This document shows positions 30,001 to 49,900 of a DNA stretch of 64,000 bases, piece by piece. The translations under genes were made by a program, and so were the position numbers. The stretch lies in assembly GCA_963693095.2 (NCBI GenBank), contig OY843768.1, positions 1,280,001 to 1,344,000 on the forward strand, read 5' to 3'. The notes below the pieces were generated by a model. That model saw nothing but the letters and a program-made list of their open reading frames with translations. It had not been told where the DNA came from and ran no database searches. The stretch comes from Cenarchaeum sp. (GTDB lineage Archaea; Thermoproteota; Nitrososphaeria; Nitrososphaerales; Nitrosopumilaceae). The first letter of the stretch is position 1; the number at the start of each line of letters is the position of its first letter.

Positions 30001-33000
30001 GTACGTCGCCGGAGCCTCATAGTCGACGTCGGTCACGCCAAGGTTGCCCTCCGTAGCAGTCACGGTCCATTCGGTCGTCCCTGACGAGGAGACGTCAGTC
30101 ACGTCCTCGCCAAAGGTCACCGATATCGTCGTCGCGTCGGTGAACGAGGCCGACTCGATGGACGGGGAGACCTCGTCGGCGGCCACGACTGGGCTGGCGC
30201 CCGTGGAGGCCAGCACGGCGCTATCAGCGTCGGCGATTAGCGGGGTTGCAGCCGGCACCGTGTACGCCACGTCCGGCGTCGCGTCGTCGTCCTGCGCGTT
30301 GGCAGACGCGAGTGTGAGCGTGATCGTCTCGACTGCAGTCGTTATCGTGATCGCCGCGTCGTCGACCGTCGTGGACGTGCCGTCCGTGATGGACTCGGGC
30401 GCCTCGCCGGCGACGCTCCACTCCATGCGCGCCGTGCTGCCCTTTAGATCCTCCGAAAAGGTCACAGTCACTGACGTCGGCGTGTCAAGCGTCGCCGACG
30501 CCACTGTCGGCACCACGCCGAGCGTCGCGCCACCAGGCACCCCCGTGGTCAGGCGCAGGCGGACGTCGCCATGGTCCACTATCCCGCTCACGGCAAAGAC
30601 ATAGTCGCCCCTGGGCACCGACGCGTTCAGCGTGAAGCGCAGGCCTGTGCCTGCGGCATAGCCCGCGTCGACTGGGTCAAAGACGTCAGCGGCGTTATCG
30701 ACGCTGCCCGTGGCGATCGCATTGGCCGAGAGCTGCCGAATCCCCGGCACGAAGACATGCAGGCGCTCGCCTGTAGGCTGCATGGCGGGATCGTCAAAGA
30801 GAACCTCGACGGTTCGCGCGTCAACAAAGCGAGCCTCATCGGGATGCGGTCCGAGGCCGTCAGCGGCGCGGACGGGCTCATCGCCCGTCGAGAGCATGAC
30901 GTTGCCAGACGCGTCGGCCAGGCGCACCTGCCCGGCAACGAGCATAGTAGAGGCGTCGTACGCAAAGTCCGGCGTCGAGGCCGACGAGGCAACCCTGGGG
31001 TGGACGATGTCTATGCTGGCCAGAGCCGATGCGATGAATAGGCGCTGGGTGGGCGAGGCAATGCCTATGGCCTGCATCTTGGTGCCGTCCGCGCCCTCCT
31101 TGAACGACCAGTCAACTGCGCGTATCGTGCCGGTGACAGGCTCGCTAAAGGTGAACCGCGAGGCTTCCAGTGCCAGCGTCCGGACCGTGAACGTCGGCGG
31201 CGCCTTGTCAGAGACTGCCGTGGCCGTGGCCATCCCGCCGGCAGTGGCGACGAGGTCGTTGCCAGAGGCGTCTGTGATCGTGTTGGCCGCAGTCGGCGTG
31301 CCGGCCGCGGGGCGCGTATAGACCACGTTCGCCGGCGTGATCGCCACGAGTGGGCCGGTGCCATCAGGGTCGGCCAGTGCCGTGCCCACGCGCGAGGCTG
31401 ACAGCGTGAGGGTGATCTCCTCGACTGAGGACGGCGAGGACGGCGTTACTGTGCTGACTGTCAAGCCGGCGACTCTCCACTCATCAGGTGCTGTCACGCC
31501 GTTGACAGGCTCGCCAAAGTCGATCGTAACGGTGCTCGCAGACGTGAGCGTCGCGGTGAACGCCGGTCCGGCCGTGTCCACCAGCGGGAGCGTGGCCGCA
31601 ACGCCGCCGGCGGCGTACGGCAGGTATGCGGCGTTGGCCAGCAGCGACGTCGGCGTGATCGTGTGGGCTACGCCGCGCGTCGCATCACCGGCAAGCAGAA
31701 GCGTGACTGTGAGCGCATCTGCGTCATAGGTGACAGCGCCAGTCGAGGCCAGCGCGACGCCGACTGGGTCTCCGCCAGGCGTAGAGTTGGGCACCGTCAC
31801 GCCAAAGTTGCCTGCCACGACTGTCCTCTGCGCGAGCAGCTCGTTAAAGGTGAGCACGATGGTGCGATCGCCAGAGAATGCCGCGCGGAACGTCGGCGGC
31901 GTCGTGTCGTACGTCACGCCCACCGAATCCTCAAACTCGTTGCCGTTCACGTCCTCTATGGTGCCCCCGCCGATCGTCAGCGCATAGAGCGTCCCGTCAG
32001 CAGCAGTCGAGACGCCAGGCGACAGCGGGAGCGTTATCGTGCTGCCCGAGGAGCTCACCACGCCAGCTGTGGGAATCGGCGCCGTTAACACCATGCTTGT
32101 GAACGCAAACGTGAGCCCCGAGGGCAGCGTGGCGAGCGTCTCGGTAAAGGTCAACGTCATGCCGTTGCCGTCAGTCGCAAAGACTGCGCGATCCAGCCTT
32201 GGGTTGGCCTCGTCGGTCACTGCCGTGGACATGGCCCTCGAGCCGGCGGCAGCAAGGTCGTTGCCGGTGAGGTCCGTGATCGTGTTCGACGCAGTCGGCG
32301 TGCCGGCCGCCGGGCGCGTATAGACCACGCTCGCCGCGCTGAGCGCAGTCAGGCCGCTGGCGCCATCGGGGTCAGTCAGGTCTGTCGTCGCGCGCTCTTC
32401 GGCTAGCGTGAGGGTGATCTCCCTGACCGAGGAGGGCGAGGACGTCGAGGACGGCTCGACTGCGCTGACTGCCGAGCCGGCGACGATCCACTCTCCGGGC
32501 GCCGTCGTGCCGCGAACGTCCTCGTCAAACCTGATCGTCACGGTGCTCGCAGACGTGAGGGCCGCCGTGAACGTCGGCGCAGTCGTGTCTGGCGTGTAGT
32601 CCGTCTCCGACACGACGGCGACGAGCGCGTTGCCGGCAAGGTCGGTGATTGTTATCGGCAGCTGCACGGCCCACGACCCCTGACTGTTGGCCCCCACTGC
32701 CACGGTGAGCATCGTGCCGTCGGCCTCGGCGGCGGCGTCCGTGAATGCGCTGGACGGCGAGGCGACGCGCACGGTGAACGGGGCGTCTGGCGTCACGATC
32801 ACCTCGTTGAACGTGATCACCATCGAGGTGCCCCTAAAGAACGCCGGCGTCGCCGCATCAAGCGTCGGTGCGGTTCGGTCCACGGTGGGCAGCTCGACTG
32901 TGATGTCTCCGGTGTGGCCGTCCGCAGCCGTTATCTGTCCGTCGATGCCGGCGGCATCCTCGACATCTATGGTAAAGTCAAACGGCGAGGCCGCCGCCGT

Positions 33001-36000
33001 CTCGGGAGTCGTGGCCGACACGGCGAGGTCATAGTGCCACGTGCTCGCGTCGCTGCCGCCCGTGTTCACCATGGACTCGCCCGTGAGCCCGCCGACGTCG
33101 ATCTCTGGCGTGCCAGAGGCATCCTCGCCGAGCGTGAGCAGGAGGCGGATCGTGTCGCCGGCCGCAGCATGGAGCCTCGAGGCGCCGGACTTTAGCGTTA
33201 ACAGGTTCAGCGCGTCAGCGCCGCCCGTGTTGGTGTCATCGTACACCTCAAAGGATATCGCAGTAGCCCTCGGCGGCGCGTCATAGGTGCCCGTGGCGGC
33301 CGCGCCGGCGTACGCGTTGCCGGCCAGGTCAGTCAGCGTGGTCGGCAGCGCCACAGAGTACGCCCCCGACGCGCGTGTGGCATCGAGCACGGTGACGACC
33401 GCGCCGGCAGGCATGGTGTTCCTGTCCATCGCATCAGACGCGCCTGACGGCGGCGTGACTCGCAGCATGGCCGGAGAGACGACTGGCTCGCTGAACGTGA
33501 GGACGATCGAGTAGCCCGAGAAGGCAGTCGTCGTGAGCGTCGGCGCCGTGCGGTCTATGGTCGGCACGTCCGCCGTGCTGCCGCCGGCTAGCGCAGTCTC
33601 CTGCGTTATGGGCTCAGGGTTGCCCTCCACTGTGATCGAGAACGTGAACGGCGCAGTGGGCGAAGTCTCGACTGTCGTGGTGCCCACGATGATGTCGTGG
33701 TGCCACGTCGTGTCCAGCGCGTCGCCATTGTTGCCCATCGTCGTCGCCGTCGGCGTCCTGCCCGTGCCGGGCACCGTCACTGACGGCGCGGCGGTGACGC
33801 CCTTGTCGAGCGTGAGCACGAGGCGGATCGTGTTGTCTGCCATCGCGTGGAGCTCCGAGGCGCCGGACTTTATCGTGGACAGGTTCAGCGTGTCGGCCGT
33901 TCCGGAGCCGTCAGTGTCGGTGTCGCCGTACACCGCAAAGGATATCACAGTCGCCATCGGCGGCGTGCTGAACTCGGCGCCTCCCGGCACGGCCGTGTTG
34001 GTGGCCAAGGGGTTGCCCACGCCCACCACGTCTTTTATCCCGCTCACGGCCAGGGCGTACGTGCCCTCGGCCACATGGGCGTCCAGCGTGAAGCGCAGGC
34101 CGGTGTTCGGCCCATAGCCCTCGTCGGCTGGGTCAAAGAGGTCGGCGTCGTCATCGACGCTGCCCGTGGTGACCTTTGTGCCGGCCATGGTGGAGACCGT
34201 CAGGCGCTCGATGCCGCGGCCGGGATGCGCGACGGCCTCGTCAAAGAGGACCTCGACGGTGTCTGACGCCGTAAAGCGGCCCACCGCCGGAACCGGCGGC
34301 GCGCCGTCGGCGGCCGCGACTGGGCTGCCGACAGTGGAGCCCACGGGGTTGCCGGCCCTGTCGGCCAGGCGCTCCTGCTCCCCCACGAGCGTCGCCGAGT
34401 CGTCGTACAGGACGCCCGGCGTCGAGGCCGCCGACGGGAGGGCGTCGTGGTGGAGGATTATCCTGTCCGTCCCGGCCTGCGGGATCTCGACTGTGGCCGA
34501 CGGCCCGTCGGAGCCCACGGTCACGTCATTGACTGTGATGCTGCCCCCGTCCGAGAGCGACCAGTCGTCCGCGCGCGCCGTGCCCACGAGCCGCTCGGCG
34601 AAGCGGATATCCGTGTGTGTCAGGCTCTGCGTCTCGGCCGTGAACGCCGGAGGCGTGGTGTCCTCCACGGCAGACGAGGTCCCGTCGGCCAGCGCGTTGG
34701 CCGCCGGCGAGGTGTCGGCTATCGAGTTCGCCCTGGCGTCCTCGCCGTCCGGCACGTTTAGCGTGAGCGTGATCGTGGCGAGGTCGAACGAGGTGGAGTA
34801 GCCGCCCCTGCTATCTGGCGCCGTGATCGTGGCGGTCTGCGCGCCCAGGTTATAGGCGACATTCGAGGCGGCCAGCGTGGCGTCGGCCGTGTCGGCGGCG
34901 TTCCTCCCCGAGAACGTCCAGTCGGCGGCCGTCGGGAGCGTCTTGCCTGTGGCCTGCGAGACGGGCTCGGAGAAGGTCACCGTGTGGACGGCGGTGAACA
35001 AGCTGTCCGTGGAGTCAGTCAGCGGCCTCTCTACCGTAAACGTCGGCGGCGCGCCGTCAGTCACTGTCGAAGCCGTGGCCGTGCCGCCAGAGGCAGTCGC
35101 AAGGTGGAGCGTTGCAGAGTTTTGGATCGTGTTGGTGCCAGTGGGCGGGCGCGTATAGACCACGTTTGCCGTGGTGATCGCAGTCAGGCCGCCGGTGCCG
35201 TCGGGGTCCTCCAGGCCCGTGGAGGGGCGCTCGATGAGCTCGAGGACGATCTCTGTGTCGCCAAAGGGCGAGGACGGCGTGACCGTGCTGACCACAGAGC
35301 CGCCGACGCGCCACTCAGTCGCCGCCGTCGCGCCAACGACTGGATCGCTAAACGTGATCGTCATGGTGTCCGCAGACGTGAGCTCGGCATCAAACGTCGG
35401 CGCAGTCGTGTCCACCGCGTACGTGGCCATCACGGAGGCGGTGGCAAGCTCGTTGTCCGAGACGTCCGTTATGTCCGTGGAGAGCGCAACAGAATACTCG
35501 CCGGCAGTCGGCGCGGGGATCGGGACTGCCACCCTAGGTTCGCCGTCATTGTGGTTCACGGTCACGCCGCTAGTGGTGGACGTAGGCGTCGTGACCTGCA
35601 GGCTCGAGGGCATGTCGTTGACCGGCTCGCTGAACAAGATGGCTATCGCGTTGCCAAAGAAGACGGCCCTGGCCGTCGGCGCCACACTGTCGGTGACTGC
35701 AGTGGCAGTGGCCGTCCCGCCGGCGGTGGCGAGGTCGTTCCCAGAGCCGTCGGCGAGCGTGTTGGACGCAGTCGCCGAGTCGGCCGCAGGGCGCGCATAG
35801 GCCACGCTCGTCGTGCTGATCGCAGTCAGGGCGCCGGTGCCGTCGGGGTCCTCCAGGCCAGTGGAGGGGCGCGCCGCATCAAGCGTGAGGACGATCTCGT
35901 CGACTGAGGATGGCGAGGACGGCGTGACGGTGCGGACAGTCGAGCCGGCCACTGTCCACTCTTCAGGCGCCGTCGTGCCGCTGACATTCTCGTCAAACAT

Positions 36001-39000
36001 GATCGTCACGGTCTGCGCAGACGTGAGCGTCGCAGTGAACGTCGGCGCAGTCGTGTCTGGCGCGTACGTCGCAGTCACCCTGGCAGGCGAGGCAAACGCG
36101 TTGCCGGCAAGGTCGGCCAGGCCCGCCGGCAGCGTGACGGTGTGCTCGACCTCGTCCGCGTCGCCGGCCAGCGTGATGGTGATCGTGAGTGCCGTGGCGT
36201 CATAGTCGACTGGGTTTGTGGTTGCGAGCATGACTGTGTCGGGGAGGTTGTCGTCGTCATCTGGCGTGACCGTGCCGTCAGGCACCGTCACTCCGTACGT
36301 GTAGTCCTCTATGGTCGAGTCGGTGCCGGCGAGTGCCTCATCAAGCGTGATGACGAGCGTTCTGACTGCCGTAAAGTCCGCTTCGGCCGTGGGTGCCGTG
36401 AGGTCTATGGTCGGCAGGGTTTCGATGGTGCTGTCATCCTGCGTTATCGTCGCCATGTTGTTCGCCGCGTCGGCGGCCGTGATCGTGAACGCAAAGGCCG
36501 CCTCGGTTGAGGCCCCTGACACTGCCAGGTCGTAGCTCCACGTCGTGGCCAGCTCGTCGCCATTGTCGTCCATATCAGTCCCCCCTGCTGCCGTCCGACC
36601 GGTCACCACTATCGTCGGCGTGCCGGCTGCGTCCTCGTTGAGCGTCAGGACGAGGCGGATCGTGTCGCCGGCGCTGGCGTGCAGCGCGCTGTTGCCGGAC
36701 TTTAGCGTGTTCGTGTCCAGCGTGTCAGTGCCGTCGCCGTCCGTGTCGGTGTCGTCATACACCGTAAAGACGATCGTGCTCGCAGCCGGCGCCATCGTGT
36801 CTGACGATGTGCGCATCGCGCTCGCCGTGGCGCCTGCTGCGATCGTGTTGTCGCTATCGTCCTGTATGCCATCGGGCAGCTCGACTACATAGGGTGTGTT
36901 GGGGGCCGAGTTCGACGCCAGCGTCAGCGTGACTGTCGAGGTGACGTCCTGCTCGGCATAAACTGCCGTGCCTGTGAGGCCCACAGCCGAGCCGCCGGAG
37001 GTCATGGAGTACGACGAGGTCGCAGAGGGCACCGTGCCGTCCTTTAGGTGCTCGCGGAACGTGATGACAAACGTGTTGGGCGCGGTAAACGCCGAGGAGA
37101 GAACCTCGGGGTTGCGCACCTCGACGCGCACGCGATAGCCCCCGTCATCGATCAGGGCGCCTGTGGTTCCCAGGTCGACGTCAGTCGAGTCCTCAGTCAG
37201 GTCCGCGTGCGTGAACATTGACTCGTTGCCGACGGCGTCGCGCACGGTGAGCGTGAACGGGATGTTGCCCTCTGGCGAGGAGGCCGTGACGGCGTGCGAA
37301 TAGTTGTACACCGTCGATAGGCGCGCACTAGTGCCCGCACCTGAGGCAGTAGTCGACGAGGTCGTGTCGGGGAAGAACGTAATGTCAGCAGAGGCGGCAG
37401 AGGGAGTGTAGCCTCCTGATGCTCTAGTATTGCTGCCATCATGCGTTATGGCCGAGCCGCCGACATAAAGATCCTCGGTGGGCTTTATGAACACCCATGC
37501 AGTATGGCCTGCGCTGGCAGGATTCGAGCTGTAAACGGGAGGCTCTCCAGGGACAGCCCTGAGCATGAACAGCGAGCCGGTGTCGGCCAGCTCGGGTGCC
37601 GCCTCGTCAGTAAAGGTCGCGCTAGTCGCCGTCGCCGCCAGCGCGTTGGACGAGGCGTCAATTATCGACGAGCCGCCCGTGTGGGCGAGGGCTGCGCCGG
37701 TGGCGACTGCAGTCGAGGCTAGCCTGTTCGTGGTATCCCTCGTGAGCGTGACTGTGGTGCCCGAGACCGTGCCAGAGTCAAAGGTGATGCCGGTGCCGAT
37801 ATTCCACTCCGAGCCGGTGATCGTGCCAGTCACGGTCTCGGACATTGTCGCCGTCACCTGCGTCGAGGAGTCAAGCGTCGCCGAGAGTATCGTGGGGGCT
37901 ATCCTGTCAAGGGCCGTGATGTGGGGCGCGCTTGTCGACTCCAGGGCGACGTCGACTGCGCTGTAAAGCGAGTTGGCATTCGGGTTTATCGGCGGTGTGA
38001 ACGCATCTGTCGGCCGCGTGTACGTCACTGTCGGCGTCGCGTCGACGGCCTGCGCGTTGGCAGACGCGAGCGTGAGCGTGAGCGTCGTGCTCGCCGTCCC
38101 TATCGTGAGCGTCGAGCCAGCGTCTACTGGCGAGCCGCCTGCGGCCACCGAGGTCGGCACCGTGCCGGCGACTCTCCACTCGTTGGCATCAGTCGTGCCG
38201 TCGAGCGTCCCGGAGAACGTGACGGTGACTGTCGTCGGCGCGTCAAGCGTCGCGCCCGTTATCGTCGGCGGCGCATTGTACGTCGCCGTCGTCGACGCAG
38301 AGGCGACGATATTGTTGGCCGTCGGCGTGGCCCTGTCCTTGATCGCATTAGCCGCGTTGATCGTGTAAGTCAGGCCGGCCTGCGCGGCGTCGTCGAGCTC
38401 TATCGTGTATGTAGAGTCGGCCGTGCGCGAGGCTGACTCTAGGTCGAGGGATGTGACACCGCGTACCACCGACCAGCCGTCGTCTCCCTCAATGTCAGTC
38501 ACGTTAGTCACGTCCTCGCTGAACGTCACGGTGATCGTGTCAGCATCGACAAACAAGGCCGACTCGATGGACGGGGGTATCCCGTCGGCGGCTGCGATGC
38601 CGGCCGGCAGCGTCGAGAACAGCGGGAGATCGGCGGCGTTCTCTAGCGAGTTGGCGTCAGATCCCGTAGGCCTCGTGTACGTCACGATCGGCGTCGCGTC
38701 ATCCTCTTGCGCGTCATCGTCTTCCAGCGTGAGCGTGATCGAGCGCACCGCCGTGGTTATCGTGATCGAGCCGTCATCAATCGTCGTCTGCGAGCCGGCC
38801 ATGACGGACTCGGGCTCCTCATCGGCGACTCTCCACTCGCCGCGCGCAGTCTCGCCGTCTAGCGCATCTGTAAAGCCCACCGTGACTGACGTCGAGGAGG
38901 TGAGCCTGACAGAGGATATCGTGGGCGCCACGCTAACGGCAGCCAGCGTGCCATCGCTCACGGCATTGCCCTGCGTGTCGGCGATCGAGAGCTCCCTGGC

Positions 39001-42000
39001 CGTTGCAACGGCGTCAAACTCTATGCTGATGGGCGTGTCTGCCTTGAAATCGTCATACCCGTCATCGCCTGTCGCCCGCGGGCTCAGCGTGACTGTGTCA
39101 GTCGTGTCAAGGTCGATCGCATACCCCGCGCTCAGCGCAGGAACCCTGATGGTCGCATCCAAGCTGTTCAAGCCGACGAACTGCCAGTCCTCGTGTGTGG
39201 GCAGCGTCTTTGTTTCGACAAGCTCTGCCCCCTCGGTGAACGTTATCGTGTGCGCAAGGTCGGCTCCCGTGCCGGTCCGCACGGCGATATAGCCCGGAGG
39301 CGCCCCGTCAGTCGCAGTAGCAGTCGCCGCGCTCACGGTGCGGCCAGTCGCAGGCGAGAGGCCGCCCGCAGTGGCAGCATACGTAATGGTCGGCAGCGAG
39401 GCCGTAGAGATGGGCTCGTGGAGGAGCGTTATCTTGTCAGAGGTGATCTCCACGGCAGCCGCGCCGGCCGTGACCGCATCGACCTCACCGGCGGCGATTC
39501 CAGTGGCCGGACCGGCCGGCTCGCCATCAAGGCTGCCATCCACAATCCACTCGGACGGCGCACTAGAGCCGCTCACAGCAGAGCTGAACGTGATGACGGT
39601 GAGAGTCGAGGAGCTAGTCACGGCAGTTATCGTGGGCGTCGCCGGTATGCTAATCGTGCCGGCAGTCACGCGAGTCTCATCGGCGGTGACATTTACACTA
39701 GGTGCTGCGCCGTCGCGCGCGACAATGTCAAACTCTACTGTGCCTGACATGTCATCAACGCCGACGGTGTGCGTGTGCGTCCAGACGGTCCGGTGGGCCG
39801 AACCCGCGGCGGCGACCATGTCTACTGTGGAGCCAAAGATCGTTATCATGGGTTCTGTGGCCGCCGAGGCCGGCTCGGTTAGCGTCACCGTTATGACAAT
39901 GTCCTCGCCCACATTGGCCACGCGCGAAGACTGGCCCATCTTTGCAGTCTTTGGCGTGCTATCATTATCATCCTCATCGACAAAGACGCCGGCCGTGGCC
40001 GTTATGGTCAGATCAGTGGTGTCATCAAAGTCCGCAACCCCGACTGCGCTAGTCAGGACGCGCAGCGCGCCGGCACTCGATGAGAGGCCTGACGTGCGTG
40101 GCGTGCCGTCCGCGCCTAGATAGCGCACGACGGGCGTCGCGTCTGCCGGAAGGGCAGAGGCCGCCCCAAGGGTGATCGCAAGCGAGGCCCCGCCGGCTTC
40201 AAGCGTCGCGCCCGAGGGCACTATGTGGCTCGCCGTGTCACCAAGCCCGCCGGGGAACGTCGAGGGCGTGAGGTCGAGTATCCATTGACCGGGCGTGGTC
40301 GTGCCTGACATCGAGTCAGAGAATGTCACGGTTATGGCCGTAGGCGAGGTGAGCGTCGCGCCAAACGTCGGTATCGCGCCGGTCATCACGTCATAGTCGC
40401 CGCCAAGCAGCAGAACATTGTCAGACGGGTCAGGATCAGAGGCGACGTACGTTCTAACCGTGGAGGGTATCGTGATCGTCTGCGAGGACGGCGTGCTCGC
40501 ATCGGCCCGCAGCGCGACTGTGAGCGTCGAGCCGTCAGCGGCGGCCGCTATCACGTCGGCCCTGTACGACTCGCCGTCAGCAGTAACCACCGCAAGGTCG
40601 CCAAACGGCGGCGTAGTCGCCGGCCTGTTTGGCAGCGTTGTCGGGTCTGGGGTGCTGCCCGCAAAGGCGAGGCTCACCTCTGATGCCCCGCGGCCGGCGA
40701 CCTCGCCGACAGTCACCGTGACTGTCGGCGTGAGCGAGACCGAGCCCGGACCGGCCACGCCGTTGGCATCAGTAATGCCCGCAGTGGCCACGACATGTGA
40801 CACGCGCGCAGCCGCACTGGGCAACGTAATGAGAATCGTGTCTGGTGCGACAAACTCGGCCGCAATGTCCACAGAGGCTGCCGTGCCGATCGTGACGCCG
40901 AGTGCGGACGGAACCGTCTCCTCGGCGATAGCCTCGCTGTACTTTAGGCGCAGCGTGTCCTGTGAGGCCAGCGTGAGTGTCACAGTCGGCGCAGTCGTGT
41001 CACGGACTACTGGTGCCGTAATGTCAGCGGTGGTTCCGTTATCGTGCGCATCTACAATCGCGGGCATACTACCGCTCTGGGTGGCAAGGGTGATCGTGAA
41101 CAAGGTTCCCTCGGCGACACCACTGATGCCGGGAGACTGATAGTTTATGAACAGCGTGTCCGCAGGAACGGGATCGCCTGCAAAGGTGTCGCCGGGAATC
41201 GAGGTGCCTGAGGGAAGCGGAGGCGACGCGTCGGCGCTTGAGAGTCCTGGAGATAGGCGTGAGAGATGCACGGTGATAGGCTCGCTAAAGAGGAGTCGCA
41301 GGGCAAGGCCATTAGACTCAAACGTCGCGCGAACGAGCGTCGGATCCAGGCCGTCAGCGGCAGTGACGGGCTCATCACCCGTAACTTCGAGGTCGTTGTC
41401 GTTCACGTCGGCCAGGCTCGTTGCGGCATCAGTTATCTCGTATGCCACAGAAGGCCTCGAGGCAGTAGAGTCCAGCGTGTCGTGGACCAAAAAGAGCGTC
41501 CGCGCGCTCGTGAGAACCTGCGTTGCGGCGCCATCAGAGTCCACGGCAGTCGCGACGCCCGTGACGGTCACGCCGTCGACTGTCCAGTCAGCCACGCGGG
41601 CCGTGCCCGTGACAAGCTCGCTGAACGTGATCTCGGTGCGGTCGAGCCTCGCCGTCTCGGCAGTAAAGCTCGGCATCATGGTGTCAATCACCTCTGCAGA
41701 TGACGTGTCGGCCACGGGGTTGCCGGCGGTGTCGACGATAGAGTTGGCCCTGTCAGACTCGCCATCACTGGGCACGTCGAGCGTGAGCGTGATCGCCTTG
41801 GACTGGTCAAAGGCCGGATAACCGCTAGTCGCGTCATTGCTGGCCACGACGGCAAGCGTGCCGGCCGTGGCAAGCGCCGTGTTGACCGCCGACGTAGCCG
41901 AGACCGTAATGTCCGCATCAGCAGAGTCCTTGCCGGTGAACTTCCAGTCAGCTATCGTCGGCAGCGTCTTGCCGGTGGCCATCTCGACAGGCTCAGAAAA

Positions 42001-44291: not shown

Positions 44292-44302
44292 CATAATGGC
44301 AA

Positions 44303-44471
44303 AAAATAGCACGATCAGGCCCTGATCGCGCCCCCCCCCCCCCCCCCCATTTTTGGGGGGGTGAACGTCGGACCGCAAGACGCCAGACTGCCAAGTCGGC
44401 ACAGGTGGGCATTGGGCCGGCGCAGGCCGACAGGCCAGCAGAAGAGTCCCGTGTCGCACTTTGCGCAGGGC
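44303..44471. repeat. Intergenic direct repeat copy 1 (palindrome + C18 tract + conserved core)
   Basis: CGATCAGG-C-CCTGATCG inverted repeat, C18 (44331-44348), ATTTTT-G7, and a 46 bp core (44414-44459) identical to 48219-48264. Confidence 0.92.
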
Positions 44472-44529
44472 AGGCGGACAAGTCAATCATCGATCGCAAA
44501 AAAGCAGCGGCCGTGCCGGCGCAGAAATC

Positions 44530-45477
44530 CTATTTGGCGCGAACTGTAAACCCTGGGAGTGAGTTTGCCGAGCCGCTCTCGGCTGTGGCGCAATAGCGCG
44601 CAACAGTCAGCTCGCCATCCTCACAGTGAACTGCAGTGGGGCCACTGATGAACAGCGGCCCGCCGCGCATAGATGTAACATAGGCCATGTCATCAGGAAT
44701 ATTGTCATTTTGCAGAACCGTCAGTCCGGGGAATCGAAAGACATTGCTGTACGGCGAGTCTGCGGCATCGTCATGCTCTACTGTTATGGACGGATTCACA
44801 AACATCGTGTCGAGCCGGTATGGCAAGTCACCACCAAGGCTCTTGACAAGGTTCAGTGCAAGACTTGAGGATATTGGGCGGTCGATATTTAGGGTCGGCT
44901 CGTGTTCGGGGAGCTCGGCAAGCCGTTCCAGGCAAAGTGCGTCCTCAAAGGACCAGATTTTTGGCATGATATCGTTGAGAAGTCCTGACGGGCCGGGATT
45001 GTCAAGCAGGCGTTTGGAGACGGAGAATATTCCAGGACGCATGCCAATTGATCTATCAGGTAAAGGAAATCGCATAACTCCATAAGGATCTGACGACAAT
45101 TGGAATGCCATATCGTCAAGAGATAGCGCCTCAGGGCGGATTGTGTGAAACCCATATGGTAGGGGAGCTGGCATCGGATATTCAAAAAAAGACTCAATTT
45201 GAGGCTTGGGATCCTGTGAAGGGTATGTAAGCAGGCTATGATCATTTGACGTATATTTCACACGAGTATATTCCGGATCATCATAGTCAATATTGTCAGA
45301 GACACCAACATGGTACACGCAATCGAGATGCTTATTCGCGTTGTACAAGATGATTGCAGAGCTACCAGGAGAAAGAGGGCAGCATTGGACACGGCCACTC
45401 GCAGTCGATCGATTTGACCCATGATGCAATTCGTGTATATGGACTAGTGCTAGCGGCAACTCTTCGGGCACATACAT
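44530..45477 (-). CDS. Hypothetical protein, putative divergent HK97-fold capsid-like protein (paralogue A)
   Basis: The ORF extends to 45663; the likely start is MYVPEE at 45477. Paralogous to 46876-47988. Motifs FSVSKRLLDNPG...IWSFEDALCL, LDTMFVNP and PGLTVLQNDNIPDDMAY resemble HK97 major capsid spine-helix and A-domain motifs. The CDS is likely; the fold call is tentative. Confidence 0.6.
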   Translation of the reverse strand: MYVPEELPLALVHIHELHHGSNRSTASGRVQCCPLSPGSSAIILYNANKHLDCVYHVGVSDNIDYDDPEYTRVKYTSNDHSLLTYPSQDPKPQIESFFEYPMPAPLPYGFHTIRPEALSLDDMAFQLSSDPYGVMRFPLPDRSIGMRPGIFSVSKRLLDNPGPSGLLNDIMPKIWSFEDALCLERLAELPEHEPTLNIDRPISSSLALNLVKSLGGDLPYRLDTMFVNPSITVEHDDAADSPYSNVFRFPGLTVLQNDNIPDDMAYVTSMRGGPLFISGPTAVHCEDGELTVARYCATAESGSANSLPGFTVRAK

Positions 45478-45763
45478 GTCAAGGCTCACACGCCAGGGCA
45501 ACAGACGGAAAGATATACGTGTTTGAGCAGAAATGGCACAAGTCCTGCAATATATGCGGCAAGGATCAGTGCGCGCGCATCGCCCTGAGGAGATGGCATG
45601 GTGTGAGACTTGGATAAACGGCCTTGCCGATACCCGCACTCCTGAACAGTCTCCCCTAGGCACGCTCTTTGACCAGCATGTGACAAAAGGCTGTCAGTCA
45701 TTTGTGGCCAGGCACGGGATCGCGCACCCAAACCCCCAAATCGCCATCGGATCACATGGCGCA

Positions 45764-46780
45764 CTACCAGTGTCCAAGCCTATGCCCCTCCCTTAGCATC
45801 CAGGTAAGCCGCCCAGAGTTGACGCGCAGCTGGCCCACCCTGTATGGAATGTCAACGAGCACGCAAAACAGCACGTGGTCAGCATGGGACTCGTACATGT
45901 CAACCGTGATGTCGCGGCCGAGCCTGTCAGGATACCGGCCAGTGGAATTGTGCAAGAACAGCGGCATGTAATGTGGTGCGTGCGAGATCAAGATCTGAAA
46001 TCCAAACTCCATGACCAGGCGGCGAAGAAACCTGCCATATGGAAAGTCCCCCCCAAGGCGTGACCTTGCGCCATCAGAAAGGAATGCCTGACACTCGCGA
46101 AAATGGCGCGCAAAGAGGGCACGTTCGGCAAGATTCTCCGCAAGCGCCAGATGGCCCGCACGGCATTTTGAGAGGGCGGCATAGTCCAGGGTTTTGTGGG
46201 AGAGCAGCGGTGCCTCCAGGGTGCGGTTGGATATTTTAGGCAAGGCCATGCCAGTCCGTCCGGTGAGGGAGAGGATTGAGGAGATGTGCTTTTTTTGCTG
46301 CGAGTTGAGAATGGCAATGGCGTTTTCTTTTACCTGAAATCCCATATGGCTCTTCCATGTGCGAGACTTCCACGACGAGTCACCTAGCCAAACTTTCCAA
46401 GCATGGGCCATGAACTGGGCAGCGTTCTCATCACGGGCCGCATCTGGCCCTGGTGCGGCATTGATATACGAGGCGAGCAGGTCGCCAGACGGCACAGTGG
46501 GCAGCCCCATTCCGGCAATGTGGTCGGCATATAGCCGGTATATGTGGGGATAGAACTGGTGTCCAAGTGAGCCCAGGATAGACGTGCCGATGCCCCGGTC
46601 AACCTCCTCGCAAAGCCTGAGAACAACGGCCTTTAGCTGTTTTTCAATGGACTGCTGGCCAAGATACATGGCAGGCCCCAGGGCGTATCCGGACCGGCAG
46701 AACCTTGCGATGAGCTGGGCCTGCCTCAGCTCAGAGGTGGACTGCTGCTCAAAATGCCCCGACATTTGGCGCATGGGCAA
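45764..46780 (-). CDS. HEPN-domain-like protein with a large internal insertion
   Basis: AMYLGQQSIEKQLKAVVL...SLGHQF matches the HEPN N-terminal QQxxEKxLKA...H signature, and C-terminal GRYPD matches the HEPN RYP motif. About 200 aa lie between the two. Confidence 0.65.
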   Translation of the reverse strand: MPMRQMSGHFEQQSTSELRQAQLIARFCRSGYALGPAMYLGQQSIEKQLKAVVLRLCEEVDRGIGTSILGSLGHQFYPHIYRLYADHIAGMGLPTVPSGDLLASYINAAPGPDAARDENAAQFMAHAWKVWLGDSSWKSRTWKSHMGFQVKENAIAILNSQQKKHISSILSLTGRTGMALPKISNRTLEAPLLSHKTLDYAALSKCRAGHLALAENLAERALFARHFRECQAFLSDGARSRLGGDFPYGRFLRRLVMEFGFQILISHAPHYMPLFLHNSTGRYPDRLGRDITVDMYESHADHVLFCVLVDIPYRVGQLRVNSGRLTWMLREGHRLGHW

Positions 46781-46875
46781 TCACGTGACATGTCCCGTGC
46801 CATCCATTGTCAGTAGGGTCATGCGCGCGCACGGGCAGCCGTGCCGCAGGCGAGCAGGGACAGATCCGTGCGCAG

Positions 46876-47988
46876 TCATCTAGTGCCCTCCCCAGACTGT
46901 CTCTTGCCTTTTCTCCACTCCATTGTGGAGTCAAACTTTACGCCCCACGGAACGCTTGGCGCGCCAGGGGTCGGAGGAAATGCCAGATCACAATAGCGCT
47001 CGACTTTGATCTCAGAGTCCGTGCTGTGCAGTATTGACGGGCCGTGGACAAACACCGGGCCCTGCGCAGACGACGTGGCAAATGAGGAGTCAGGGGGCAT
47101 CGAGGATGAGTGCAGGAACGTAATGCCGTTCAGGCGAACCATGTTTCTATAGTCTGGATATCCCTCAGACCAGTCAAGTGTTCTCAGATCACGGCCAAAG
47201 AGCAAGAGATACAGGCCATAGTCCACAAATACCGTGTCAAGGCGCATGTCGTCCGGACGCGAGCGGTTTAGCCTGCCGACAAAGTCCTCGAGATCGGCCA
47301 GGGTAGAGTCCCAGTGGCACGCAAACGTCTCTTCGCCGTCTAGTGCCATCAGCTGCTCAAGGCACATGGCATCCTCGCGCCACCATATGCTGTCAGCCAT
47401 GCTATAGTAAAAGTCATTGGCACCAGGACGCATAAAGTCAGACCTCTTGACCTTGAGCGCAAAGTGCGGCATGTCTGCCATGCCCGTGCGCCCGTGATCG
47501 CACACAGCCTTGCCGTTGGCAGGAGACGGAACCCTGGATTCTGCACATTCCTGCCTGTCAAGACATGTCCGTTGCACCCTAAATCCGGCGGCAAGGGGCG
47601 CAGACGGCGCATTGCCGTCCGGATCCATAACGCGCGCATCGGAGAGCTGCGGCACGTCAGGGGACCCTATGAGGCGCCGGTCAAGCTGGAGCATTGCCTG
47701 GCCCCGGGAGCCGGCCTGGCGGACAGACGCTGCCCTAGAGTACGTGATCCTGCCGTGCGCGCTGACCTCAACTGTAGAACCGGGCTCAAGCGCGCAGCAC
47801 GGCACGCTGTCGACTAGGAATCTCCTCGAGTTGGGGCCTTGCGGGCATGTCGGGGGGACCGCATCGGAGAGCTGCGCCTCGCGATGGCAGTCACAGTGCC
47901 CAAGGAACAGGTCGACTGCCCTGCTCAGCGAGGTCTGATCCGCATAGGAATAGTGGTCTGCATACCCGGCGCGCCCGTCGTTTGTCAT
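46876..47988 (-). CDS. Hypothetical protein, putative divergent HK97-fold capsid-like protein (paralogue B)
   Basis: 370 aa, with TATA-like ATTATAAT upstream at 48009-48016. Shares CCxLxPGS, APLxxGF, IWxxEDAxCLExL, RLDTxFV, YxNxxRxxGxTxL, GPxFxxGP and VxRYC with paralogue A. Confidence 0.62.
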   Translation of the reverse strand: MTNDGRAGYADHYSYADQTSLSRAVDLFLGHCDCHREAQLSDAVPPTCPQGPNSRRFLVDSVPCCALEPGSTVEVSAHGRITYSRAASVRQAGSRGQAMLQLDRRLIGSPDVPQLSDARVMDPDGNAPSAPLAAGFRVQRTCLDRQECAESRVPSPANGKAVCDHGRTGMADMPHFALKVKRSDFMRPGANDFYYSMADSIWWREDAMCLEQLMALDGEETFACHWDSTLADLEDFVGRLNRSRPDDMRLDTVFVDYGLYLLLFGRDLRTLDWSEGYPDYRNMVRLNGITFLHSSSMPPDSSFATSSAQGPVFVHGPSILHSTDSEIKVERYCDLAFPPTPGAPSVPWGVKFDSTMEWRKGKRQSGEGTR

Positions 47989-48094
47989 GCAGATGATTAA
48001 TGGGCGGCATTATAATAATGTGATGGCGTGTGCTAGGTATGAGGTCAGCACCCCTGTGGCCCATTTGGTCAGATAGGCGCGCTGACCTCATACG

Positions 48095-48277
48095 AAAATG
48101 GCGCGATCAGGCCCTGATCTCGCCCCCCCCCCCCCTCCCCAATTTTGGGGGATGAACGTCGAGCCGCAAGACGCCAAACTGTCAAAGTCGGCCCAGGGCT
48201 GGGCATCGGGCGGGCATCGGGCCGGCGCAGGCCGACAGGCCAGCAGAAGAGTCCCGTGTCGCACGTGTGCGCAGGGC
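48095..48277. repeat. Intergenic direct repeat copy 2
   Basis: Same orientation as 44303-44471. GATCAGG-C-CCTGATC, C13-T-C4, AATTTT-G5, and the identical 46 bp core. It carries an extra gggcatcggg duplication. Confidence 0.92.
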
Positions 48278-48845
48278 TGCGACGTGCGAGAACTAGTCGC
48301 AGCAGCAGATCGTGTAAACAGTCCGCGCAGTATCGTCTTTGCGCGCGCGCACAGGTTGTGCGGCCGCATCACGCAGCAGAGAGACACGGCATGAAAGACG
48401 CGGGCGGATCAAGTCAGCCATGCCGCACTGCCATGTCTTGCGTCATGCCTACAGTCTGGCAAGAGATAGCGCGAGGGTGGGGCGTGTCGGCAAGCCACGG
48501 CGTGTGGTGAGCATGATACTGGCGCAATGATTTTCGGTGACCTGAATCGCTCGCGTCACGCGCGCAGGCACAATCCTGTGTCATGAACATGGCGCGCAAA
48601 GAACTGTGCAGCACAAAGCCTGCACACAGTTCCGTCGGCACAAGATGGCACAAGATCGGCAATCACGCACAGGGCGTTCCAGAGAACGCGTGTCCTGATC
48701 AGGGATCGTCTGGAGCCATGCGCGCAAGCCAGGCGACTGACATTGTGGGCGTGTGTGCAGCCGATCAGGAGAACAGGGCATTGCGCGAGGTGGCCACATC
48801 ACACAACGGCCAGAGATAGGCGAGCCGGCACGGTGGCGCCACTAA

Positions 48846-49043
48846 CTATGGCATTGCATACGCGCAGAACAGCGTGCGGTTCACCTTTACGTTGGCAATG
48901 GTTCTGTGCACTATGGGGACGTTGTGGTATGTGGCGGCCTTGCTGCTGCAGATCGCCGCAGTGTATGGAAGACGCGCCCTATCCGCACATTTTGCCGTTA
49001 CCGTGGATATCATCTGCCCACAGGACAAAACTTGAAACATCAT
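48846..49043 (-). pseudogene. Duplicated C-terminal fragment of the prephenate dehydratase-like gene
   Basis: YTAAICSSKAATYHNVPIVHRTIANVKVNRTLFCAYAMP aligns with YIAAICSREAAEHYGVPIVRDDIANVKDNKTEFHVYARP of the upstream gene. An in-frame TGA lies two codons upstream of its ATG. Confidence 0.7.
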
Positions 49044-49096
49044 GCCTCAGGAGATCAGAGCACAGCACATCCCAGAGCCGCACACATGTGAAAATT

Positions 49097-49729: not shown

Positions 49730-49900
49730 CGCGCCGACATGGCACACGAGCCCTATAAGAGCTTAACAGGATTCGCCACACCCATTAAATGCGGCGTTCG
49801 ATCAGCCCCCACGGCCTCTACACTAGCCTGCCAAGTCGCCCACGGTGGATATCGCCTGCAATGCGCGCATTGGCCAGATGGCAGTTCCACGCGTGCACGC

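What the first reader, a model, noticed from the sequence alone, without database searches (positions are those of the whole stretch)
44303..48277. Candidate new system: repeat-bounded cassette of capsid-like / HEPN / capsid-like genes directly upstream of the giant gene
Seen: three co-oriented genes (two clear paralogues sandwiching a HEPN-motif protein) lie between two direct repeats, with no terminase, portal, protease or integrase nearby. Knowledge: HEPN domains are commonly RNase effectors of toxin-antitoxin and antiviral systems, and HK97 folds occur in viruses and encapsulins. Inference: this may be a domesticated-capsid module, for example a decoy or sensor that co-assembles with viral capsid and releases a HEPN effector, or an atypical two-component nanocompartment with HEPN cargo. 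I do not recognise this architecture from described systems.
Basis: partly seen in the sequence, partly recalled or inferred. Interest (0 to 1): 0.85.

Follow-up and report, generated by a model that had tools for sequence, protein, structure and literature searches.

The report
Capsid-like genes paired with HEPN protein
A sponge-associated ammonia-oxidising archaeon carries, outside any recognisable virus, a small operon of two virus-capsid-like proteins flanking an enlarged HEPN-domain protein, a pairing that recurs in its defence islands and has not been described before.

Summary
Three co-oriented minus-strand genes (370, 338 and 377 aa) lie between two ~175-nt direct repeats, just upstream of a gene of about 24,500 codons, in a Cenarchaeum-like archaeon. 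The outer two are true paralogues (hhalign 99.9%). The modelled one has an HK97 capsid fold (pLDDT 78; 201 Foldseek PDB hits at E<=0.001; 41 chains at Z>=8). The middle protein is a PF05168-type HEPN domain split by a ~200-aa insert (hhalign 97.7%). It has no conserved Rx4-6H nuclease motif, so the "RNase effector" reading is unsupported. No terminase, portal or canonical capsid family matches anywhere in the genome.

The conserved unit is capsid-like gene followed by HEPN gene. It recurs at five loci in three genomes, and once more with a different, Rx4H-bearing HEPN family. The other copies sit among Old, PD-T7-4-like, AbiJ and GmrSD genes. Predicted binding has only weak support. The repeats look like a duplicated terminator-bearing intergenic element, not proven att sites.

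Best reading: a virus-derived capsid-like/HEPN conflict module. An encapsulin-like compartment and a mobile-element remnant remain open. It is a new variant of a known kind. Interest is moderate to high.

The parts
46876..47988 (-). A2: HK97-fold (capsid-like) protein, 370 aa, with a Cys/His-rich N-terminal extension of about 125 aa
   Evidence: ORF. AF2 model with pLDDT 78.3 and pTM 0.81. Foldseek PDB: 201 hits at E<=0.001, the listed rows being HK97-fold capsids and encapsulins. VIA-align: 41 chains at Z>=8, top T4 gp24 at Z 12.2. BFVD: 194 hits at E<=0.001. dN/dS 0.23 against the G004 orthologue.
45764..46780 (-). H: enlarged PF05168-type HEPN-domain protein, 336-338 aa. The HEPN helices are split by an insert of about 200 aa, and the C-terminal tail G-x3-G-x-W is conserved.
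   Evidence: 19 of 29 family members hit PF05168 at E<=1 (best 1.5e-6); the window's own copy does not. PDB profile hits 1wol_A at E 0.0021. hhalign against small HEPNs gives 97.7%, E 2.1e-12, over 53 columns. The AF2 model failed at pLDDT 38.8.
44530..45663 (-). A1: diverged paralogue of A2, 377 aa if read from the GTG; the true start is uncertain
   Evidence: The orthologue in G004 is 75% identical. The Met at codon 63 is Ala in G004, so that start is not conserved. The first 62 codons have dN/dS 0.96.
48095..48277 (-). Direct repeat, copy 2. It lies upstream of the A2 promoter and on the minus strand ends in a G-run, a hairpin and a short T-run.
44303..44476 (-). Direct repeat, copy 1. It lies between the A1 stop and the giant-gene promoter.
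44301..44332 (-). Terminator-like hairpin (11 pairs) followed by T6, at the 3' end of repeat copy 1. It is the probable end of the A2-H-A1 transcript.
   Evidence: Its function as a terminator is inferred.
48010..48019 (-). TATA-like A/T box 22 nt upstream of the A2 ATG, the probable promoter of the operon. I saw no comparable box before H or A1.
   Evidence: My reading of the sequences; inferred
44331..44348 (-). G18 tract (minus strand) inside repeat copy 1. The matching G13 tract of copy 2 is at 48123-48135.
1..44268 (-). 5' part of the giant gene (about 24,546 codons, signal-peptide-like N-terminus). This is context, not shown to belong to the module.

Best explanation
What it is (shown).
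- The cassette is a three-gene unit, A2-H-A1, in a Cenarchaeum-like archaeon.
- A2 and A1 are diverged paralogues of a genus-restricted family of HK97-fold, virus-capsid-like proteins.
- H is a PF05168-type HEPN-domain protein enlarged by a helical insert of about 200 aa.
- The evolutionarily conserved unit is the ordered pair 'capsid-like gene, then HEPN gene'.

How it is built (inferred).
- The three genes are probably one transcript. It would start at a TATA-like box 22 nt before the A2 ATG and end at the hairpin plus T-run inside repeat copy 1.
- The two repeats are a duplicated intergenic element that carries a poly-G tract and this terminator-like hairpin.

How it most likely works (inferred).
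- It is a virus-derived conflict module. The capsid-like protein oligomerises and physically holds the HEPN-domain protein.
- The holding may run through the HEPN protein's conserved C-terminal tail or through its insert.
- The pair acts in virus/mobile-element conflict, in defence or as part of a selfish element, and not in metabolism.
- Because the catalytic Rx4-6H motif is missing, H is more likely a binding or regulatory partner, or a nucleotide-binding protein, than an RNase.
For: HK97 fold of A2.
- The AF2 model has pLDDT 78.3 and pTM 0.81.
- Foldseek PDB gives 201 hits at E<=0.001, and the listed rows are capsids or encapsulins.
- VIA-align against 48,161 chains gives 41 at Z>=8. The top is T4 gp24, Z 12.2, 233 residues aligned, rmsd 4.4.
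- BFVD gives 194 hits at E<=0.001, named major capsid proteins.
- A1 is homologous across the whole fold.

HEPN identity of H.

Real genes: dN/dS is 0.23 for A2, 0.59 for H and 0.68 for A1 against G004, and 0.30-0.40 between paralogues.

The pairing recurs.
- Of 7 full-length A2-type genes in the loci I hold, 4 have an H gene immediately downstream: the window, G000 at 1.92 Mb, and G004 twice.
- A diverged A in G001 also has one.
- A truncated A-like gene in G000 is followed 106 nt later by a different HEPN-superfamily protein. It matches Hypoth_Ymh and PD-Lambda-3_B (E 1.4e-26) and carries Rx4H.

Conflict context of the other copies.
- Old nucleases (PADLOC E 2e-57 and 1e-52).
- A PD-T7-4-like DUF4145 protein, AbiJ_NTD4 and GmrSD.
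- IS630-type transposases.

Copy number and range.
- Five A and three H copies lie in a 2-Mb genome.
- The A family was found in 3 of 4 other same-genus genomes and in 0 of 36 genomes of other genera.

No provirus: 0 matches to two terminase families, Phage_portal and Phage_capsid in the genome.

Binding (complex prediction, verdict 'weak support').
- Median ipSAE is 0.49 (runs 0.01, 0.49, 0.65). The best of 3 controls is 0.00.
- The mark was reached by 58 of 80 solved complexes and by 2 of 110 mismatched pairs.
- At 0.60 or under it was reached by only 7 of those 80 and by both mismatches that passed.
- The runs agree in at least 84% of contacts, and the partner's pLDDT is at least 78.
- My own alignments were used, so these counts hold only roughly.
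Against: - None of the three proteins hits PADLOC, PHROGs, Pfam or NCBIfam.
- H lacks a conserved Rx4-6H, so no effector activity is evident.
- The pairing is not obligate. 3 of 7 full-length A2-type genes have no H next to them. At least 5 H-family genes stand alone: G000 at 1923656, three in G004, and one in G339 of another genus.
- The window copy itself sits between a housekeeping gene (PDT) and a giant surface-protein gene, not in a defence island.
- 'Guilt by association' with defence genes is weak evidence.
- Shell formation and binding are untested, and the complex prediction is weak by the tool's own calibration.
- H could not be modelled (pLDDT 38.8).
Confidence: 0.42

Rival explanations
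1. Structural module of an unrecognised virus, satellite or other mobile element of Cenarchaeum, or its decaying remnant. A2 and A1 would be major capsid proteins. The all-helical H would act as a scaffold-like or accessory protein. The direct repeats would be the scars of a Campbell-type insertion.
For: - ESM-Atlas nearest clusters for A2 are viral capsid families, not encapsulins. Scores are 0.89-0.91, which makes this a lead only.
- The top structural matches are phage capsids.
- The family is multi-copy, fast-diverging and flanked by IS elements in other loci.
- The cassette is bounded by 175-nt direct repeats.
- A2 and H are 95-96% identical between G000 and G004, while the neighbouring PDT is 63% identical (dS 0.03-0.11 against 0.57). 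That fits recent exchange.
- A 2026 paper reports small HK97 elements with only a capsid protein and a scaffold, and no terminase or portal (PMC13669383; I read passages only).
Against: - The genome has no terminase, portal or canonical capsid family.
- No relative was found in IMG/VR: 42 pattern matches, 0 confirmed.
- The right flank I scanned has no integrase or replication gene.
- The genes are intact and under purifying selection in two species.
- H is a HEPN domain, and it also occurs alone in another genus.
- Both repeat copies are conserved in both genomes, and no empty site was found.
Confidence: 0.25
2. An encapsulin-like nanocompartment of a new family. A2 and A1 would co-assemble into a two-component shell, and H, encoded between them, would be the cargo, targeted by its conserved C-terminal tail.
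For: - HK97-fold proteins occur here without viral packaging genes.
- The gene order shell-cargo-shell has a precedent. Some Family 2B two-component encapsulin operons have a terpene cyclase between Enc1 and Enc2 (PMC12407261; I read passages only).
- H carries an invariant-position C-terminal motif.
- The A2-H interface prediction has weak support: 0.49 against a best control of 0.00, with the calibration counts as given in the best explanation.
- Encapsulins are among the structural matches: Z 9.8, 9.2 and 8.6.
Against: - No hit to any Pfam or NCBIfam family, encapsulin families included, at E<=1 and E<=10.
- H is not an enzyme class known as cargo.
- There are five diverged A copies, several without H and one truncated, lying in IS- and defence-rich regions. 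That is unlike the usually single-copy metabolic encapsulin operons; this last point is recalled, not tested.
- A1 accompanies A2 only at this one orthologous locus.
Confidence: 0.15
3. Accessory genes of the giant surface-protein gene, for example for its folding, export or regulation, co-regulated through the shared upstream repeat.
For: - The adjacency and the repeat are conserved in G000 and G004.
- The repeat carries a poly-G tract of the kind found just upstream of 6 giant or large genes in this genome.
Against: - None of the other A or H copies lies next to a giant gene.
- The other five giant genes with poly-G tracts have no A/H neighbours.
- The A2 promoter lies downstream of the repeat. 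In A2 the tract is 134 nt from the ATG, against about 60 nt in the giant genes.
Confidence: 0.05

Closest known systems
Encapsulins, especially Family 2B two-component systems (PMC12407261, PMC8346489)
   Same: Both are cell-encoded HK97-fold proteins without packaging genes. Two paralogous shell-type genes sit in one cluster, sometimes with a third gene between them. The shell protein has an N-terminal extension.
   Different: There is no sequence membership in any encapsulin family and no cNMP-binding insert. The middle gene is a HEPN-domain protein, not an enzyme. The genes are multi-copy and lie in islands. The system is archaeal and restricted to one genus. Assembly has not been shown.
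Major capsid proteins of tailed viruses (Caudoviricetes) and of capsid-forming satellites (PICI, GTA)
   Same: The fold is the same, with the best structural matches Z 12.2 to 8. The nearest language-model clusters are viral capsid families.
   Different: The genome has no terminase, portal or canonical capsid Pfam. IMG/VR holds no relatives. The genes are conserved under purifying selection in two host species.
Classical small HEPN-domain proteins (Pfam PF05168; solved examples 1wol, 1ufb, 1o3u), usually partners of minimal nucleotidyltransferases (the partnership is recalled)
   Same: The motifs QQxxEKxxK, GH and RYP occur in the same order. hhalign gives 97.7%.
   Different: H is about 2.5 times longer, with an insert of about 200 aa between the GH and RYP motifs. 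No nucleotidyltransferase gene lies beside it. Its partner is a capsid-like protein. It has a conserved C-terminal G-x3-G-x-W tail.
PD-Lambda-3 and other HEPN-bearing defence systems in PADLOC (Tha, AbiJ, Argonaute-associated HEPN)
   Same: A truncated A-like gene in the same genome is followed by a PD-Lambda-3_B / Aga_HEPN-like protein with Rx4H. HEPN effectors triggered by phage structural proteins are known, for example Tha (PMC11087260; I saw only the abstract in the search listing).
   Different: No A-family protein matches any PADLOC model. In known systems the structural protein is the invader's, not host-encoded. The window's H lacks the catalytic motif.

Membership tests
HK97-fold capsid/encapsulin superfamily | HK97 (Johnson) fold: E-loop hairpin, spine helix, P- and A-domains | tested here: met
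   Shown for A2 by the model and three structure searches. For A1 it rests on homology over 275 columns only; A1 was not modelled.
HK97-fold capsid/encapsulin superfamily | Self-assembly into closed shells | not testable with these tools
   It needs expression plus EM or SEC.
Encapsulin (Families 1-4) | Shell protein belongs to a curated encapsulin sequence family | tested here: not met
   No Pfam family at E<=1 and no NCBIfam family at E<=10 for A1 or A2.
Encapsulin (Families 1-4) | Adjacent cargo protein with a targeting peptide or domain that binds the shell interior | tested here: inconclusive
   H is adjacent and has a conserved C-terminal tail. Complex prediction gave weak support: 0.49 against a best control of 0.00. 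No interface was reported.
Encapsulin (Families 1-4) | No viral packaging or tail genes in the neighbourhood | tested here: met
Caudoviricetes provirus | Large terminase and portal genes together with the capsid gene | tested here: not met
   0 matches in the 99.55%-complete genome to PF03237, PF03354 and PF04860. Very divergent versions cannot be excluded.
HEPN superfamily (PF05168 type) | Sequence homology to the HEPN domain | tested here: met
   19 of 29 family members hit PF05168 at E<=1. hhalign against 18 small HEPNs gives 97.7%, E 2.1e-12, over the N-terminal 53 columns. Local HMM matches of the RYP region occur in 3 small HEPNs. The window's own protein alone gives no Pfam hit.
HEPN superfamily (nuclease-type) | Conserved Rx4-6H catalytic motif | tested here: not met
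   The invariant or near-invariant residues are H74, G281, R282, Y283, P284, Q42, Q43, E46, K50 and Y296. No conserved His lies 4-6 residues after a conserved Arg.
HEPN superfamily | Four-helix up-and-down bundle | tested here: inconclusive
   The AF2 model had pLDDT 38.8. It is predicted all-helical. The complex run gave partner pLDDT 78-86, but that model could not be searched.
HEPN-MNT toxin-antitoxin pair | Adjacent minimal nucleotidyltransferase gene | tested here: not met
   The neighbours of H are A2 and A1, and neither has a nucleotidyltransferase family hit.
Known anti-phage defence systems (PADLOC 2.0) | Match to a system's protein models | tested here: not met
   0 families at E<=1 for A1, H, A2 and four other A-like proteins.

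The most novel reading that the evidence does not exclude
Archaea have domesticated a viral HK97 capsid protein as the sensing or sequestering half of an immune module. The host capsid-like protein pairs with interchangeable HEPN-superfamily partners: the enlarged PF05168-type H, or an Rx4H Ymh-type nuclease. It either co-assembles with an invading virus's capsomers and releases or activates the HEPN partner, or it cages the partner until infection. This would be a capsid-derived defence system of a kind not yet described in any domain.
Probability: 0.2. Interest if true: 0.88.

Novelty: new variant of a known kind. Interest (0 to 1): 0.62.

Why it matters
Cell-encoded HK97-fold proteins are so far known as encapsulins, gene-transfer agents and satellite capsids. 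A family that is recurrently coupled to HEPN-domain proteins, multi-copy in defence islands, and free of packaging genes would add a further route of capsid domestication, and it would be in Nitrososphaerota. In that phylum little is known about virus-host conflict, and no virus of sponge symbionts has been cultivated (both statements are recalled, not searched).

The module is small, three genes of about 3.5 kb, so assembly, binding and toxicity are directly testable in a heterologous host.

The work also exposes an unusual promoter-proximal poly-G element. It is shared by the giant surface-protein genes and by this operon.

Tried and rejected
- Rfam scan of 43.5-50.5 kb. There was only a chance-level snoRNA hit (E 0.99). 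The repeat as a structured RNA is rejected for lack of support: 0 of 47 predicted pairs covary among the 4 copies, and folding z-scores are -0.73 and -1.42.
- AF2 of H with 9 sequences failed (pLDDT 38.8).
- IMG/VR scan with the A alignment: 42 pattern matches, 0 confirmed.
- JGI metagenome contigs were scanned twice, with alignment A2 and then with P0009. There were 595 and 111 pattern matches and 0 confirmed.
- Search for longer or fused forms of A2: none among 3,865 candidates. The tool itself calls this weak evidence.
- Empty site or excision. The repeat is absent from G001-G003, which are 72-91% complete, so no cassette-free allele could be examined.
- Contigs of 4 DNA runs were laid on 43-50 kb. 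They showed a 'joint' from 44357 to 48166 in X1 and X2. Its sides are only 24-27 letters and 16 letters are replaced. I read it as a strain variant of the repeat aligning half to each copy, not as a deletion.
- No RNA holder was listed among 14 runs, so nothing can be said on expression.
- M63 as the start of A1 is rejected, because the orthologue has Ala there.
- The cassette as foreign by composition is rejected. Its GC is 56-59% against a genome mean of 60%.
- Supplements of papers were closed. The supplementary tables of PMC6563490 (integrated elements of Thaumarchaeota, including C. symbiosum) and of PMC4158269 (dark-matter islands) might list this region, and I could not see them.
- Claim 'not in print'. 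It rests on searches (HK97/HEPN/encapsulin; 128 papers with at least 2 terms, 20 listed, none with HEPN; Cenarchaeum and capsid; 10 papers, 9 listed; HK97 and HEPN; 14 papers, 11 listed, none on such a pair by title or abstract). It also rests on passages read in PMC6563490, PMC4158269, PMC12407261 and PMC13669383.

Full report
**Organism and setting**

The window is G000:C1:1280001-1344000 of a 2.0-Mb, 2-contig genome that is 99.55% complete and has 60% GC. Its SSU rRNA scores 1457.6 bits with the archaeal model and 1098.5 bits with the bacterial one. The only GTDB record that the search for related loci returned for the capsid-like family is titled 'MAG: Cenarchaeum sp.' (OY843584.1, 1,644,826 bp).

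The genome is rich in giant ORFs. 21 stop-to-stop frames have 1,500 or more codons, and five have more than 11,000. The largest has 24,633 codons. It fills window 1-44499 on the minus strand and most likely starts at the ATG at 44268, which gives 24,546 codons with a hydrophobic, signal-like N-terminus.

**The observation**

Three minus-strand ORFs lie directly upstream of that gene:
- A2 at 46876-47988 (370 aa).
- H at 45764-46780 (338 aa).
- A1 at 44530-45663 (377 aa from a GTG).

A1 and A2 are paralogues. BLASTP gives 31% identity over 160 aa, E 1e-17. hhalign of an A1-type alignment (4 sequences) against an A2-type alignment (20 sequences, A1 excluded) gives 99.9%, E 9.9e-33, over 275 columns.

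The direct repeats are real. They lie at 44303-44476 and 48095-48277, in three collinear pieces of 84-96% identity. They are the only two long copies in the genome; the second copy scores E 1.5e-50, and a third hit is only the 22-nt G-run of another giant gene. Both copies are present at the same two positions in G004 and absent from G001-G003.

**Are the genes real?**

The whole region from the giant gene through A2 is collinear with G004 at 77-99% nucleotide identity in 300-column windows. Against the G004 orthologues the values are:
- A2: 95% aa identity, dN/dS 0.23.
- H: 96% aa identity, dN/dS 0.59, on very few changes (dS 0.034).
- A1: 75% aa identity, dN/dS 0.68.

Paralogue pairs inside G000 give dN/dS 0.30-0.40. 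The family is therefore coding and constrained, with A1 the least constrained.

The start of A1 is uncertain. The Met at codon 63 is Ala in G004, and the first 62 codons have dN/dS 0.96.

**The capsid-like proteins**

None of the three proteins hits Pfam (E<=1), PADLOC (E<=1), PHROGs (only one hit at E 0.067) or NCBIfam (E<=10).

The AF2 model of A2, built with a 21-row alignment, has mean pLDDT 78.3 and pTM 0.81. Its secondary-structure order is a long hairpin, a 24-residue helix, alpha/beta elements and a second long hairpin, as expected for HK97. The structure searches agree:
- Foldseek against PDB: 201 matches at E<=0.001. The 50 ranks shown are HK97-fold phage capsids, encapsulins and the P. 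furiosus particle. TM-scores are 0.29-0.40 by query length.
- VIA-align against all 48,161 representatives: 41 chains at Z>=8. The top is T4 gp24 at Z 12.2 with 233 residues aligned at rmsd 4.4. Every one of the 50 listed rows is a capsid, encapsulin, GTA or satellite capsid.
- BFVD: 194 matches at E<=0.001.

The HK97 part spans about residues 125-358. Residues 1-125 form an extra region with conserved Cys and His positions, which the fold searches did not test. The refutation condition 'no HK97 fold' is therefore not met.

**The middle protein**

Alone it hits nothing. The family does:
- 43 representatives at E<=0.001 among 1.84 billion proteins.
- Of the 29 aligned members, 19 match Pfam PF05168 (HEPN) at E<=1, best 1.5e-6.
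- Its profile finds the solved HEPN proteins 1wol_A (E 0.0021), 1ufb_A (0.37) and 1o3u_A (0.67).
- The three nearest ESM-Atlas clusters are archaeal proteins of 318-344 aa, with PF05168 on 11%, 25% and 92% of members.

A search of 401 genomes of the phylum found matches in 85. In the rows listed, full-length matches occur only in G000 and G004. Partial matches occur in two genomes of another genus of the family (G339, a stand-alone 295-aa copy, and G315, which is broken). Nearly all other listed rows cover only the first 50-100 profile positions, in ORFs mostly of 130-170 aa. These are the classical small HEPN proteins.

I aligned 18 of those small proteins. They share with H, in the same order, the motifs QQxxEKxxK, GH and RYP. 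hhalign of H family against small HEPNs gives 97.7%, E 2.1e-12, over 53 columns. In 3 small HEPNs the RYP region also aligns locally to profile positions 265-300. H is thus a HEPN domain split by an insert of about 200 residues.

There is no conserved R-x4-6-H. The invariant or near-invariant residues are H74, G281, R282, Y283, P284, Q42, Q43, E46, K50 and Y296. The R-x4-6-H strings visible in the window's own sequence are not kept in relatives. Calling H an RNase effector is therefore not justified. The family ends in a conserved G-x3-G-x-W tail.

**Co-occurrence**

G000 holds five A-family and three H-family genes. G004 holds five matches of each family, some of them fragments. In the loci I hold:
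- 4 of 7 full-length A2-type genes are followed within about 100 nt by an H gene: the window, G000 at 1,920,593, G004 at 1,125,422 and G004 at 616,580.
- A diverged A in G001 (contig C105) is also followed by H.
- Three have no H: G000 at 1,897,864 between two IS copies, G001 C116 and G002 C84.
- H genes also stand alone: G000 at 1,923,656, three in G004 of which one is split in two frames, and G339.

So the refutation condition 'never co-occur' is not met, but the pair is not obligate.

A truncated A-like gene (G000 1,949,907-1,950,530; 207 aa, matching profile positions 143-353) is followed 106 nt later by a 287-aa protein of another HEPN-superfamily branch. That protein matches Hypoth_Ymh (E 7e-32), PADLOC PD-Lambda-3_B (E 1.4e-26) and Aga_HEPN (E 4.9e-17), and it contains an R-x4-H string. 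That Hypoth_Ymh belongs to the HEPN clan is recalled. The Aga_HEPN hit is a call result.

**Genomic context of the other copies**

They lie in regions with:
- Old-family ATPase-TOPRIM nucleases, two in G000 and one in G004.
- A DUF4145 / PD-T7-4-like protein.
- An AbiJ_NTD4 protein and a GmrSD endonuclease.
- IS630-type DDE_3 transposases.

The window copy is different. Its neighbours are prephenate dehydratase, TPR, TrmB, radical-SAM, glycosyltransferase and sulfotransferase genes on one side and the giant gene on the other.

The genome has no match to Terminase_6N, TerL_ATPase, Phage_portal or Phage_capsid. The A family is not found in IMG/VR. Among 41 related genomes it occurs in 3 of 4 other genomes of the genus and in 0 of 36 from other genera.

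**Binding**

Complex prediction with A2 and H, each given as an alignment, returned 'weak support'.
- Scores were 0.01, 0.49 and 0.65 (median 0.49), and the best of three controls was 0.00.
- The mark was reached by 58 of 80 solved complexes and by 2 of 110 mismatched pairs.
- At 0.60 or under it was reached by only 7 of those 80 and by both passing mismatches.
- The runs agree in at least 84% of contacts, and the partner's pLDDT is at least 78.
- My own alignments were used, so the counts hold only roughly. No interface was reported.

I treat this as a small upward nudge only.

**The repeats and transcription**

Read on the minus strand, each repeat ends with a short C-run, an A-run, a long G-run (18 and 13 G) and a perfect 9-10-bp hairpin followed by Ts. 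The scan tool lists the copy-1 hairpin as terminator-like, with 11 pairs and the tail ATTTTTT.

A TATA-like box follows about 20 nt later, and the ATG of the giant gene follows about 20 nt after that. Copy 2 is followed by about 70 extra bases, an A/T box at 48010-48019, and the A2 ATG 22 nt further on. I saw no comparable A/T box in the roughly 100-nt spacers before H and A1.

From this I infer, without transcript data, one leaderless-type transcript A2-H-A1 that ends at the hairpin of repeat copy 1. On this reading the repeats are a duplicated intergenic element lying upstream of promoters, not part of the mRNAs.

There is no sign that the repeat is a structured RNA. Whether the duplication records a Campbell-type insertion of the cassette cannot be decided, because no cassette-free allele was available and the apparent joint in public contigs is best explained by repeat variants.

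**Poly-G tracts**

Of 10 G/C homopolymers of 13 nt or more in the genome, 6 lie on the sense strand just upstream of genes of 3,058 to 24,546 codons. In four of them the tract ends 59-62 nt before an ATG. One lies before A2, at 134 nt. So the repeat shares a promoter-proximal feature of the giant genes. That may mean common regulation, or simply that the giant gene's upstream region was copied.

**Interpretation**

The shown facts are:
- An HK97-fold family outside any recognisable virus.
- A recurrent ordered pairing with HEPN-superfamily proteins of two kinds.
- Residence of most copies in defence and IS islands.
- Purifying selection.
- A narrow taxonomic range with many diverged copies.

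These fit a conflict-related module better than a metabolic compartment, so I commit to that reading at 0.42. A mobile-element or viral structural remnant (0.25) and a novel encapsulin-like compartment with H as cargo (0.15) are the main rivals. A role tied to the giant gene is unlikely (0.05).

The mechanism is inference: oligomeric capsid-like protein holding a non-catalytic HEPN partner through its tail or insert. No activity, assembly or expression has been shown.

**Comparison with known systems**

It works most like an encapsulin or a capsid-derived particle in its building block, but it is not a member of any encapsulin sequence family. It resembles HEPN-based defence systems in its partner and context, but it matches no PADLOC model and lacks the nuclease motif.

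My literature searches found no description of an HK97-fold/HEPN pair (passages read).

I rate it a new variant of a known kind (cell-encoded, virus-derived HK97-fold modules), with a 0.2 chance of being a categorically new capsid-derived immune system.

Noticed in passing
window 44331-44348 and 48123-48135; G000:C1 337054, 493170, 515985, 766200, 776010: Long G-tracts (13-21 nt, sense strand) sit just upstream of the promoters of giant or large secreted-protein genes. This holds for 6 of the 10 tracts of 13 nt or more in the genome. In four of them the tract ends 59-62 nt before the ATG. They may be phase-variable or G-quadruplex promoter elements.
   Followed up: partly
window 1-44268 (minus strand) and the whole genome: The 2.0-Mb genome holds 21 stop-to-stop frames of 1,500 codons or more, five of them above 11,000. 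The one in the window has about 24,546 codons.
   Followed up: no
L059 5908-7501 (G000:C1:1949907-1951500): A truncated capsid-like gene (207 aa) is followed 106 nt later by a Hypoth_Ymh / PD-Lambda-3_B-like protein with an R-x4-H string. This is a second kind of capsid-like/HEPN pair.
   Followed up: partly
window 44530-49747 against L018: Divergence from the sister genome is very uneven. A2 and H are 95-96% aa identical (dS 0.11 and 0.03), A1 is 75% (dS 0.21) and the adjacent PDT is 63% (dS 0.57). This may reflect recent exchange or gene conversion of the A2-H segment.
   Followed up: partly
window 48856-48970 and 49143-49257: A 115-nt direct repeat at 71% identity. One copy lies inside the 3' part of the prephenate dehydratase gene, the other in the intergenic region upstream of repeat copy 2.
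   Followed up: no
L054 4111-5146 (G004): One stand-alone H-family copy is split over two overlapping frames and is probably a frameshifted pseudogene. G315 holds another broken copy with internal stops.
   Followed up: no
protein P0030: A 692-aa representative matches the H profile in two stretches. It may be a tandem H-H fusion or two merged genes.
   Followed up: no
L058 11114-15331 and L054 1-1320, 11995-18005: Stand-alone H copies in G000 and G004 lie near a recurring set: an Old nuclease, a protein of about 446 aa without any family hit, and (in G000) a 164-aa protein. This may be another conserved island module.
   Followed up: no
G000 contig C2 (27,705 bp): The second, small contig of the assembly was not examined. 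It has no A, H, terminase or portal match in the genome-wide searches.
   Followed up: no
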